This document shows positions 1 through 27,138 of a stretch of DNA of 64,000 nt, one piece after another. The notes beneath the pieces are model-generated. The model ran no database searches. It saw nothing but the letters and a program-made list of their open reading frames with translations, and was not told the DNA's origin. A program made the translations under genes and the position numbers. The stretch spans positions 71,548,001-71,612,000 of the forward strand of contig OZ024744.1 in the NCBI GenBank assembly GCA_964016885.1, given 5' to 3'. Source of the DNA: Eledone cirrhosa. Its lineage: Eukaryota. Position 1 is the first letter of the stretch; the number at the start of each line of letters is the position of its first letter.

Positions 1-150
1 TGTAAATTGTTTAAAACTTGAACCAAATTGTTGATAAAGACACCCTCCTCCTCGTGAGAGGGGTCTTTCTGTCCGTTATTTGGCCCTTCGGGGTTAAATA
101 ACCAGTTATTGGGGTTTTGTACCCAATATTCATTTTAAACAAAAAACAAC

Positions 151-2244
151 ATGGCTACGAAAAAGAAATTTCATACGTCACTCCCACTCATTCCGTCTTC
201 TTCTTTCTCAATCATCACTACAGCAGAGAGAAGATTGTCTCTCTCCCTCCCTTCTTTAAATGTGTCTCTCTCCCTCCCTTCTCTTTCGCAAGTGACGAAA
301 GAAAAGAAAAGTCTCGTGCAAAGCGTGCAAGGTTTCTCCACGACGACGACGACAGCGACGAAACAGGTGTGCAGGAAATACGAAAACCCAGTTCATTCGT
401 CTGACGTCAGGAATAATAGCAGTAGCAGCCGTAATAACAACTGCAACAGTGACAATGAAAACAACAGTAGCAGCCGCAACAGCATCACCAGCAGCATAAA
501 CAACAACAGCATTAGCAGCAGCAACACCAACAACAACCACAGCAACAGCGGCGGAGGCAGTAGTCGTAGTACCTGCAGCAACAACAAAAGTACCAGCAGC
601 TCTGACGACAACAACAACAGCAGAGAAAAACCAATCTCATTTGCAGGTATTGCGAAAAACCTGGAAACAATCCTCATAACAAATGAGGAATTAGAGGAAG
701 CGAAGAAGATGGTGACAAAGAACGGACACCGAGCAATCTGCAAGGCAGCGGAAAAATTTTTCGAAACCCAAGAGCACTGTACGGTCACGTACCGTACAGT
801 AAGTACAAAATCCCGTAGGGTGGAAAGAGCCACAGAGGCCCAAATACAAAAAGCCTTGGGGTCTGTGTGGCAGCGGAAAACGCACATCACCCGAGGCAAA
901 AAATATGCCACCGTAGACGTACTTTTTGCCACACCCCAGGAGGCAAAGGCCCAATCAGTAGTGACCCTAAGGAGCGAGGAAATGGTGTTGGTGCCCTCCT
1001 ACTGCGGGCAAAAAATTGTGAGGGTCAAACTGACACACGTCCCCCCCGGAATGACCCCTTCTTGGCTGGCCGCGTCTGTCCTCGTCGGAATCGAGGACAA
1101 AACAACTGTACTGCAAGTACAGAAAAAAGTAAGAGAAGATTGGGTCGGCTCCTCCATTGAGATGCTAATCCAAACCAACCAGGAGTGCATCGAAGCTATC
1201 CCGGATGTGATAGACTTCGATAACGGCACTCAACTGCCCATAAGTGTTGAGGGCAAACGCCCGAAATGCTTTCGCTGTGGATCGAAGACTCACCTCAGGG
1301 CCTTCTGCAACGAGAAGACCCTGAGAAAGGAGAAAACCCCCCTCCTTCCGAATCCGGCTCCACGGCTACCAGCAACAGGACAAGCGGCAACCAGGAACGA
1401 TAGGTCCGTGGCACCCATACCCACTCCACGGAAATCAAAAACAGCAGCAGCAGTGGAAATATTAACAACAACAACAGCAATACCAAATGCAGCTGCAACA
1501 GAGACTCCAGTGCAAACATCACCAACAACAAGTGAAAGAGTGGAGCTGGTACCCCTCCCCGACCTCACAGAATCAGACATGGAGTGTGAGGTGGGAGAGG
1601 GATGGCAAAAGGTCGCAAGAAGGCACAAACGCAGAAGCAGCGCATCGTCGCCTTTGAAAAGGGAGGAAAGAAATGAGAAAAGGGTAAAGTCTACTGCAAA
1701 GAGACCCACAGCAGCAACACCACCAACACCATCACCACCCACACCAGCACCACCATCAGCACCGGCGACAACCCCACCGCCAACAACACCTTCAACACCA
1801 CCACCACAAGCACCAACATCGCAAACACAACAACAAAACACACACACCCAGCAACAACGACAAGAAAATAGTAGAACCACACCCCACCCCCAGAAAAACA
1901 AATGCACGGCAATAAATACACACAACAAGAAACTAATGACTTACATAATTGAACACACAGACATTTCACAACAGGACTACATAATACCAGCACCAATCAA
2001 AACGCCAACTAACATAAGACTGCTAAAAATAGCACAGAAACAATACACAAATATTAAAACGAAATTCCCCAACGCAGTTGGTGATTTCAGGGACCTAGGA
2101 GGAACCATCAATCGAAGAGTATACTCAGACATTCTCTTAGAAGAGCCGACGACCAGCCGAAGGGACGATTCAACGGTCCCTTCACCAGACGATCAAGTGA
2201 AAAGGGATGTAAAAACCATCCCTCCTCTACCAAAAGTACGGTAA
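151..2244 (+). CDS. ORF1 nucleic-acid-binding protein (697 aa) with CCHC zinc knuckle
   Basis: CFRCGSKTHLRAFC fits C-x2-C-x4-H-x4-C. It has Ser/Asn- and Pro/Thr-rich low-complexity segments and a basic RRHKRR patch, lies directly upstream of ORF2, and has homologous copies elsewhere in the window. Confidence 0.9.
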   Translation: MATKKKFHTSLPLIPSSSFSIITTAERRLSLSLPSLNVSLSLPSLSQVTKEKKSLVQSVQGFSTTTTTATKQVCRKYENPVHSSDVRNNSSSSRNNNCNSDNENNSSSRNSITSSINNNSISSSNTNNNHSNSGGGSSRSTCSNNKSTSSSDDNNNSREKPISFAGIAKNLETILITNEELEEAKKMVTKNGHRAICKAAEKFFETQEHCTVTYRTVSTKSRRVERATEAQIQKALGSVWQRKTHITRGKKYATVDVLFATPQEAKAQSVVTLRSEEMVLVPSYCGQKIVRVKLTHVPPGMTPSWLAASVLVGIEDKTTVLQVQKKVREDWVGSSIEMLIQTNQECIEAIPDVIDFDNGTQLPISVEGKRPKCFRCGSKTHLRAFCNEKTLRKEKTPLLPNPAPRLPATGQAATRNDRSVAPIPTPRKSKTAAAVEILTTTTAIPNAAATETPVQTSPTTSERVELVPLPDLTESDMECEVGEGWQKVARRHKRRSSASSPLKREERNEKRVKSTAKRPTAATPPTPSPPTPAPPSAPATTPPPTTPSTPPPQAPTSQTQQQNTHTQQQRQENSRTTPHPQKNKCTAINTHNKKLMTYIIEHTDISQQDYIIPAPIKTPTNIRLLKIAQKQYTNIKTKFPNAVGDFRDLGGTINRRVYSDILLEEPTTSRRDDSTVPSPDDQVKRDVKTIPPLPKVR

Positions 2245-2279
2245 GTGGTCTTTCCCATCTTTTCCACTCTATTTTAAAC

Positions 2280-26863: not shown

Positions 26864-26880
26864 ATTATTATTATTATTAT

Positions 26881-27100
26881 AAGGCGGTGGATTGGCAGTA
26901 TCGGTAGAGGGTCGGACGCCATGCATTGACGCATAGAGTTACGGCCCTTGCCATTCTGAGTTCAAATCCCGCCAAGGTTAACTTTGCCTTTCATCCTTAC
27001 GGGGTCGATAAAATAAAGTACCAGTAATACACTGGGTAATTGCTGGCCTTGTGCCTAACGTAGAAACAATTTGCTGGCCTTGTGCCTAAAGTAGAAACAA
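26881..27100 (+). mobile_element. Full-length tRNA-derived SINE with duplicated 3'-terminal ~30 bp
   Basis: A-box-like TGGCAGTATCGG and B-box-like GAGTTCAAATCC. TTGCTGGCCTTGTGCCTAAnGTAGAAACAAT occurs twice. (ATT)n tail to 27138. Confidence 0.85.
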
Positions 27101-27138
27101 TTATTATTATTATTATTATTATTATTATTATTATTATT

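What the first reader, a model, noticed from the sequence alone, without database searches (positions are those of the whole stretch)
1..27138. A (TTA)n-dwelling retroelement community with strict strand polarity
Seen: nearly every element junction from 5962 to 27138, and again at 55283 and 61147, is a (TTA)n tract. All ORF2-bearing Tx1 copies and the SINEs within these tracts are on +, reading ATT. All five Dong copies, from two families, are on -, reading TAA. Known: Dong elements target TAA repeats; some Tx1 families target microsatellites (Kibi, Koshi); TRAS and SART use opposite strands of one telomeric repeat. Inference: an APE and a REL endonuclease nick opposite strands of the same repeat, and each insertion leaves target on both sides, so the array grows itself. 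Convergent orientation could also yield antisense read-through RNA.
Basis: partly seen in the sequence, partly recalled or inferred. Interest (0 to 1): 0.75.

Follow-up and report, generated by a model that had tools for sequence, protein, structure and literature searches.

The report
Two LINE clades share ATT repeats
In this probably octopus genome, two unrelated kinds of jumping gene sit in the same ATT/TAA repeats but face opposite ways about 98% of the time, and they likely pile up into long stacks because each landing leaves repeat on both sides; repeat-seeking is known for both kinds, but this shared target appears undescribed for one of them.

Summary
Confirmed, and genome-wide. 2,448 of 2,505 Tx1-like heads follow ATTATT directly. 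783 of 800 element ends beside (ATT)n tracts obey the polarity: APE-type LINE, SINE and CR1 read ATT, Dong-like REL elements read TAA. ATT is target, not only tail: insertions into imperfect repeats show duplications of 10-21 nt, with empty paralogous sites. SINE duplications place the likely first nick at 5'-ATAAT^R on the AAT strand (24 of 25). Corrections: polarity is not strict (an inverted (TAA)8 at 18544); only 8 of 23 truncated Tx1 copies keep (ATT)3; only 4 of 30 SINEs lie in tracts; CR1 tails likely seed tracts; antisense RNA is untested. Additions: SINE and Tx1 share a covarying 3' hairpin, and both Dong families carry a 5' head resembling Tx1 heads. Microsatellite targeting (Dong, Kibi, Koshi) and opposite use of one repeat (TRAS/SART) are known; an ATT-targeting Tx1 sharing its target with an REL clade was not found in print. 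This scan reported the same pattern on at least eight other stretches of this genome.

The parts
1..5961 (+). Tx1-like family A, full length (head begins 64 nt before the window, after (ATT)10); ORF1 151-2244 with CCHC knuckle, ORF2 2280-5699 APE-RT-zinc finger, both open
5962..6073 (+). (ATT)17, a 28-nt Tx1 3' stub (6013-6040), (ATT)11
6074..6722 (+). 5'-truncated, internally deleted Tx1 (E-type 3' end)
6723..6743 (+). (ATT)n tract, Tx1 tail to Dong tail
6744..9712 (-). Dong-like family A, 5'-truncated, internal deletion
9713..9741 (+). (ATT)n tract
9742..10468 (-). Dong-like family B, 3' fragment
10469..10564 (+). (TTA)32 tract
10565..13519 (-). Dong-like family B, 5'-truncated, RT reading frame open
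13520..13686 (+). tract, 5'-truncated SINE (13540-13650), tract
13687..18543 (-). Dong-like family A, full length; RT, CCHC and PD..D endonuclease motif in broken frames; 5' UTR of about 1.35 kb with a 324-nt tandem duplication and a Tx1-like 220-nt head
18544..18605 (.). inverted junction: (TAA)8 then (ATT)13 on plus; local exception to polarity
18606..24612 (+). Tx1-like family B, full length, decayed
24613..24648 (+). (ATT)n tract
24649..26861 (-). Dong-like family A, 5'-truncated
26862..27138 (+). tract, full-length SINE (26881-27099; A- and B-box-like motifs, 31-nt 3' duplication, CTTGT hairpin), (ATT)13
27139..31958 (+). Tx1-like family C, decayed; last member of the first stack
50524..55262 (+). 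Tx1-like family D, decayed, slightly 5'-truncated
55263..55297 (+). (TTC)7 plus (TTA)4 junction
55301..61146 (+). Tx1-like family B, decayed
61147..64000 (+). (ATT)12 then Tx1-like family E (own head and ORF1, A-type ORF2), continuing past the window

Best explanation
A young group of APE-type (Tx1-like) LINEs and two REL-type (Dong-like) LINE families occupy the same (ATT/AAT)n repeats in opposite orientations, likely because each primes reverse transcription from a nick on a different strand and leaves repeat on both sides, so that stacks grow. Shown: the orientation rule, the duplication of target, and that most long ATT tracts sampled touch an element end. Inferred steps: (1) the APE enzyme nicks the AAT strand at 5'-ATAAT^R-3' and duplicates 10-21 nt; in a perfect tract this favours the first C|ATT boundary, which every Tx1 tail (..AATC-ATT) recreates. 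(2) The Dong enzyme nicks the TTA strand first, with a short or no duplication and slippage at its 5' junction that lengthens the tract. (3) The SINE is copied by the Tx1 machinery through a shared CUUGU hairpin and needs only the short motif, so it mostly lands outside tracts. (4) (ATT)n tails of an apparently untargeted CR1-like LINE seed new tracts. No partnership between the clades is needed beyond the shared target.
For: 2,448 of 2,505 A/B-type heads follow ATTATT against 0.15% by chance. Of 39 youngest copies, 32 are full length with 5-24 ATT units 5' (six at exactly 6 units, five of these preceded by C). Of 60 copies taken in chromosome order, 35 of 35 full-length ones have 4 or more units. 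Imperfect targets are duplicated with no added tail: L106 and L109 18-19 nt, L120 10-13 nt, L122 21 nt, L355 17 nt; 12 of 12 fetched paralogues of the L109/L120 site (800 exact matches) show the empty sequence. 25 clean SINE duplications begin TTAT-like at +2..+5 and have C (16) or T (8) at -1, against 18% C and 63% C+T in background (p 5e-7 and 1e-4); -1 lies outside the primer and the SINE RNA has A there. Dong: 3' ends followed by (TAA)n in 30 of 30 B and 28 of 30 A copies; 5' ends preceded by it in 28 of 30 heads and 32 of 34 paired copies. Census: Tx1 330 of 339, Dong 333 of 338, SINE 98 of 101, CR1 22 of 22 flanks obey the rule. 29 of the first 30 (ATT)8+ tracts on contig C1 touch an element end, 8 of them a CR1-like tail. 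Hairpin: 31 of 36 cells paired, 3 of 4 pairs change on both sides, loop invariant. 26 of 32 young copies keep both ORFs; median 38 differences per 6 kb.
Against: Only 14 of 23 truncated Tx1 copies have ATTAT near the 5' junction and 8 have (ATT)3 (background 6% and 0.3%), so full-length copies may owe part of their 5' tract to an RNA leader or to pairing. L107 and L322 lack the imperfect unit that an 18-nt duplication would copy, and L117 does not match the empty paralogue cleanly. 17 of 800 flanks break the rule, some being low-complexity mismatches. The census loci were mostly fetched through the elements and the 30 tracts cluster, so they are not independent. No Dong duplication or nick site could be measured. 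The hairpin structure was derived from the same 9 hand-picked, related rows. CR1 non-targeting rests on three 5' ends read by eye. No biochemistry or RNA data.
Confidence: 0.8

Rival explanations
1. Polarity comes from RNA-primer pairing, not from endonuclease strand choice: both enzymes nick AT-rich DNA loosely, and only the strand complementary to the RNA's (AUU)n or (UAA)n end can prime.
For: Both clades and the SINE end in the repeat that they read; positions +1 to +6 of the SINE duplications match the RNA end; truncated copies are loosely targeted.
Against: The -1 pyrimidine rule (24 of 25) cannot come from pairing; three SINE duplications keep G or C at +1 where the RNA has A. For Dong nothing here separates the two explanations.
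Confidence: 0.3
2. The 5' (ATT)n of full-length Tx1 copies is a leader copied from read-through RNA, so the family looks more tract-specific than its endonuclease is.
For: 67 of 67 full-length against 8 of 23 truncated copies have a 5' tract; the SINE using the same motif is in tracts in only 4 of 30 cases; L107 and L322 do not fit simple duplication.
Against: No full-length copy among 67 showed a non-repeat duplication followed by an added tract; the 5' lengths pile up at 6-7 units as an 18-21-nt duplication predicts; all heads start at one fixed G after the tract.
Confidence: 0.2
3. The stacks arise mainly by tandem duplication or unequal exchange between tracts, or by passive accumulation where insertions are tolerated.
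For: In L127, L130, L135 and L333 an imperfect tract is identical on both sides of a copy, and the first 1.6-2.1 kb of two of them match the downstream neighbour exactly.
Against: Four of five tandem pairs differ at 26-37 sites, near the family median of 38; stacks mix eight families with different truncation points; passive accumulation predicts random orientation, against 783 of 800.
Confidence: 0.05

Closest known systems
Dong, DongAg, DongBg (R4 lineage; TAA-targeted). PMC3812793 and PMC3774820, passages read
   Same: Single ORF with RT, CCHC and PD..D endonuclease motif; sense strand flanked by (TAA)n on both sides; a mollusc member (DongBg) is already listed.
   Different: Bombyx Dong has a self-cleaving HDV-like ribozyme at its 5' end (PMC3774820); here the head resembles Tx1 heads and no Rfam ribozyme was found. 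Two families with 34-60% identical proteins share a 75% identical head.
Kibi (TC)n, Koshi (TTC)n and crocodilian Tx1 families in (TTCC)n/(TTTC)n. PMC4494074, passages and section 15 read; PMC3812793, passages read
   Same: Two-ORF APE-type LINE of the L1/Tx1 group inserting in a microsatellite in one orientation.
   Different: Target is (ATT)n, in an invertebrate, at thousands of copies, shared with an REL clade; kinship to Kibi/Koshi was not tested.
TRAS and SART in Bombyx telomeric repeats. PMC10088271, passages read
   Same: Two families use one repeat in opposite orientations and build arrays.
   Different: Both are R1-clade elements in telomeres; here the partners have unrelated endonucleases (APE and REL) and the target is a dispersed microsatellite that they help to make.
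SINEU with Tx1-Mar (PMC4494074) and stringent L1-clade LINE/SINE pairs of monocots (PMC3747384); passages read
   Same: A SINE follows the target of a Tx1 family more weakly than the LINE does (SINEU-1, -2); a shared 3' stem-loop with compensatory changes (monocot L1).
   Different: Here both signs occur together for a Tx1-like LINE: shared motif and shared hairpin, in a SINE with at least 113,641 copies.
Human L1 endonuclease (TTTT^A nick, recalled)
   Same: Homologous APE domain; inferred nick at a pyrimidine-purine step, with a duplication of about 16 nt.
   Different: The nicked strand is AAT-rich rather than T-rich, and the RNA end used is (AUU)n rather than poly(A).

Membership tests
Tx1 clade (L1 group) | Two ORFs; ORF2 = APE endonuclease + RT + C-terminal zinc finger | tested here: met
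   Pfam Exo_endo_phos, RVT_1, zf-RVT; best solved relative is L1 ORF2p, E 2e-52 against 1e-21 for R2
Tx1 clade (L1 group) | ORF1 with a gag-like CCHC knuckle (feature recalled) | tested here: met
   CX2CX4HX4C read in the ORF1 translation; no Pfam family passes its cut-off
Tx1 clade (L1 group) | RT groups with named Tx1 families rather than with other L1 lineages | not testable with these tools
'Tx1' is therefore a structural label
Kibi/Koshi subgroup | Target (TC)n or (TTC)n | tested here: not met
   Target is (ATT)n; works like them but is not shown to be a member
Dong / R4 clade | Single ORF with RT, CCHC and C-terminal restriction-like endonuclease, no APE | tested here: met
   1,244-aa open frame in L261; CX2C..H..C and RPD..D motifs; nearest solved relatives are R2 proteins only
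Dong / R4 clade | Insertion in (TAA)n on the sense strand | tested here: met
Dong / R4 clade | 5' HDV-like ribozyme, as in Bombyx Dong and Ascaris R4 (PMC3774820) | tested here: inconclusive
   No ribozyme family at E<=1 in 17000-19000; head matches a Tx1-head profile; divergent HDV-like folds can escape Rfam and no cleavage assay was possible
Dong / R4 clade | RT groups with named Dong/R4 proteins | not testable with these tools
   15 homologues, none named
Stringent LINE/SINE pair | Shared 3' sequence with stem-loop and shared target signature | tested here: met
   mobilisation itself is inferred
tRNA-derived octopus SINEs (OK, OR1, OR2) | Identity to the published consensus | not tested
   Names seen only in a passage and reference of PMC4758252; no tRNA call, no Rfam match of note

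The most novel reading that the evidence does not exclude
The (ATT)n tracts host a module-swapping community across clades: the REL-type Dong families have replaced their ribozyme-type 5' end with a promoter head captured from their APE-type Tx1 neighbours, passed it between Dong A and B, and picked up a SINE tail in the 5' UTR, while Tx1, Dong and CR1 together create most long AAT microsatellites of the genome (about 24,500 tracts of 8+ units).
Probability: 0.4. Interest if true: 0.72.

Novelty: new variant of a known kind. Interest (0 to 1): 0.5.

Why it matters
It supplies a young, high-copy, apparently intact APE enzyme with an inferred nick rule (ATAAT^R) not found in the papers searched, beside an REL enzyme using the other strand of the same duplex. 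That allows a clean test of an open point stated in PMC3812793: whether microsatellite targeting is set by the endonuclease or by RNA pairing. It also suggests that long AAT microsatellites in this genome are mostly retroelement junctions, which matters for marker design and for reading the active Dong-R4 and L1-Tx1 families reported in Octopus vulgaris (PMC13282606, passages read; the word 'target' does not occur in its main text). A cross-clade promoter capture, if confirmed, would be the more surprising part.

Tried and rejected
No RNA holder was listed for the Tx1 copy, so expression, start sites and antisense RNA are untested. Laying contigs and Hi-C reads of four plus four runs showed Tx1 heads in organisms B, C, D, F and the Dong head in C, but gave no flanks and no empty alleles. 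A DNA search with the Dong-A 3' end returned nothing because its words are too common; a pattern search replaced it. The idea that 17221-18543 is a minus-strand Tx1 was rejected: it is the Dong 5' UTR. Tail addition by Tx1 was rejected for the six informative imperfect targets. L336 as an off-target Dong insertion and L121 as a polarity break were rejected: a rearrangement and a 5' inversion. Clade placement by named homologues failed. Literature: 10 searches found no ATT-targeting Tx1, no Tx1/Dong shared target and no Tx1-to-Dong head transfer. Not held: Xiong and Eickbush 1993 and two reviews, and the supplements of PMC4494074, whose figures list targets of known Tx1 families. Kojima and Fujiwara 2004 was seen only as cited by others, and Repbase was not available; an ATT-targeting Tx1 may be recorded there.

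Full report
Setting. The window is G000:C28:71548001-71612000 in a 3.0-Gb genome. Family names A-F are mine; 'Tx1', 'Dong' and 'CR1' are structural labels, since no named reference protein was available.

Observation. ORF2 at 2280-5699 has APE, RT and zinc-finger domains and is closest to L1 ORF2p among solved structures. The Dong frames have RT, CCHC and a PD..D motif and match only R2 proteins. The stack begins about 2.2 kb before the window and ends at 31958; a second runs from 50524 to about 8.2 kb beyond the window. One local exception exists: an inverted (TAA)8 at 18544 at the head of the full-length Dong-A.

The pattern is genome-wide. Exact patterns give 9,314 Tx1 A/E-type 3' ends, 2,505 A/B-type heads, 6,576 Dong-A 3' ends, 1,246 Dong heads, 113,641 SINE 3' ends and 24,535 starts of (ATT)8+ tracts. 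2,448 of the 2,505 heads follow ATTATT directly; chance is 0.15%. In 513 distinct tracts from 367 loci plus the window, 783 of 800 assigned flanks obey the rule. These loci were mostly fetched through the elements. Neighbour pairs are well mixed (Dong-Dong 80, Tx1-Tx1 61, Tx1-Dong 57, Dong-Tx1 47), which fits a shared target without partnership.

Target or tail. I paired both flanks of 39 of the 40 best-scoring Tx1-A copies (the window copy left out) and of the first 60 of 9,314 3' ends in chromosome order. All 32 and all 35 full-length copies have ATT on the 5' side. Two of the 60 were unresolved. Among 23 truncated copies of the 60, 14 have ATTAT within 27 nt and 8 have (ATT)3 (background 6% and 0.3%); two of the 23 are duplicates of each other. 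Insertions into imperfect repeats duplicate target: 18-19 nt (L106, L109), 10-13 nt (L120), 21 nt (L122), 17 nt (L355). Twelve of 800 paralogues of the L109/L120 site were fetched and all show the empty sequence; L117, in the same repeat, does not fit cleanly. In six informative cases no extra ATT units lie between the element end and the target, so the 3' tract is target. 5' tracts (median 9.5, six at exactly 6) are shorter than 3' tracts (median 17; p 3e-5), as expected if nicks favour the start of a tract. L107 and L322 lack an imperfect unit that a full 18-nt duplication would copy.

Nick rule. The SINE is mostly not in tracts (4 of the first 30 copies) but leaves duplications in unique DNA. 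Of 135 SINE ends, 68 had a 10-24-nt repeat upstream; 43 were dropped (29 pure tract, 8 not at the SINE head, 5 at another element's tail, 1 low complexity) and 25 kept. They are 11-21 nt long (mode 16), start with (A)TTAT, and have C (16) or T (8) at -1, against 18% and 45% before ATTAT in background. A looser first pass gave 26 of 30. Under target-primed reverse transcription (recalled) the first nick is 5'-ATAAT^R-3' on the AAT strand. The -1 base is outside the primer and differs from the SINE RNA, so it likely reflects the enzyme. Five of six full-length Tx1 copies with a 6-unit 5' tract also have C there. Each Tx1 tail ends ..AATC-ATT and so would recreate a preferred site.

Dong. 3' ends are followed by (TAA)n in 30 of 30 B copies and 28 of 30 A copies. 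Heads are preceded by it in 28 of 30. Among 35 fetched B copies, 34 were analysed and 32 have (TAA)3+ within 30 nt of the 5' junction; two alignments broke internally. 5' junctions often carry short repeats of the element's first bases between TAA runs, which suggests repeated priming. No duplication length could be measured; short 3' flanks limit it to about 10 nt or less. That Dong nicks the TTA strand first follows from orientation and the recalled mechanism only.

SINE and CR1. Tx1 and SINE 3' ends share a stem around an invariant CTTGT loop followed by ..GAAA..ATT; 31 of 36 cells pair and 3 of 4 pairs change on both sides. The nine rows were hand-picked and related, and the structure came from them. 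With the shared motif and duplication size this makes Tx1 the likely mobiliser. Of the first 30 (ATT)8+ tracts on C1, 29 touch an element end and 8 follow the tail of a CR1-like LINE; three of its 5' ends read by eye are not in tracts, so it likely seeds targets rather than seeking them.

Head sharing. Dong A and B heads are 75% identical over about 350 nt although their proteins are 34-60% identical with no DNA-level match, and Dong-B carries a 51-nt SINE 3' end in its 5' UTR. A profile of five Tx1 heads matches the Dong heads end to end at 23.0 and 16.0 bits; 0 of 500 dinucleotide shuffles each and none of 645 composition-matched windows (maximum 4.0) reach this. The Tx1-A head itself is not found by the other four, and leaving Tx1-C out drops Dong-B to 2.1 bits, so the signal is modest. 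Shared marks are a start at G, GTAAG or GTGAG at +29 to +46, and an A-run with ATGG at +211 to +222. Bombyx Dong instead has a 5' ribozyme (PMC3774820, passages); none was found here. Capture and convergence on a host promoter layout both remain open. Tx1 families also swap heads and ORF1s: 23 of 60 copies join an E head to an A-type ORF2.

Activity. 26 of 32 young full-length Tx1-A copies keep both ORFs, at a median 38 differences per 6 kb. Ten runs of seven coded organisms hold half or more of the element's words.

Comparison with what is known. Dong elements target TAA repeats; Kibi, Koshi and crocodilian Tx1 families target other microsatellites (PMC3812793, passages; PMC4494074, passages and section 15). 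TRAS and SART use one repeat in opposite orientations (PMC10088271, passages). Active or expanded Dong-R4 and L1-Tx1 families are reported in cephalopods without target analysis in the passages seen (PMC13282606, PMC8967140). Stringent 3' hairpins in the L1 clade are known from monocots (PMC3747384, passages). PMC4640811 and PMC4758252 were read as passages for background. Ten searches found no ATT-targeting Tx1 or cross-clade sharing of a microsatellite, but key reviews, Repbase and the supplements of PMC4494074 were not available. Eight earlier notes of this scan describe the same pattern elsewhere in this genome; they are not independent support. One prompted the test of truncated copies, and my count agrees with it.

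Verdict. Real, genome-wide, and a new variant of known behaviour: interest 0.5. The inferred nick rule makes it directly testable, and the Tx1-like Dong head is the lead with most room for surprise.

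Noticed in passing
window 18320-18543 (minus); L269 Dong-B head: Dong A and B 5' heads match a profile of Tx1 heads end to end and are 75% identical to each other; possible cross-clade promoter capture.
   Followed up: partly
L269, Dong-B positions 854-904 from its head: A 51-nt SINE 3' end sits in sense orientation inside the Dong-B 5' UTR; the same stretch shows in translations of L262, L267, L281 and L291.
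   Followed up: partly
L127, L130, L135, L333: The imperfect tract before a Tx1 copy is identical to the one before its downstream neighbour; in L127 and L130 the first 2,073 and 1,652 nt also match the neighbour exactly. Suggests 5' completion by copying the neighbour.
   Followed up: partly
L097-L135 and L308-L367: Unusually many Tx1 copies are full length: 32 of 39 youngest and 35 of 58 resolved copies taken in order.
   Followed up: partly
window 61183-63300 against 1-2200: Tx1 families are mosaics: A and B share head and ORF1, A and E share ORF2; at least five head types, all with GTAAG/GTGAG near +30 to +37.
   Followed up: partly
window 18544-18605: Inverted (TAA)8/(ATT)13 junction at a Dong 5' end, not seen in 30 other heads; origin unexplained, perhaps fold-back during junction formation.
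   Followed up: partly
L281, L282, L290, L089, L263; window 55263-55283: (GAA/TTC)n runs lie next to Dong heads, whose first bases are GAA-rich; slippage there may create a second microsatellite.
   Followed up: no
L296-L307: An unidentified repeat with 800 exact copies carries a degenerate ATT tract and was hit by Tx1 at least three times among the 39 youngest copies, with similar sites in L330 and L355.
   Followed up: partly
L121: A Dong-A copy with a 5' inversion.
   Followed up: no
window 17733-18381: 324-nt tandem duplication in the Dong-A 5' UTR, absent from L069 and L091.
   Followed up: no
L363: A truncated Tx1 begins right after two telomere-like CTAACC units.
   Followed up: no
window 34500-50000: Long (AT)n-rich and minisatellite stretch with a roughly 550-nt unit repeated at 40360-43044, separating the two stacks.
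   Followed up: no
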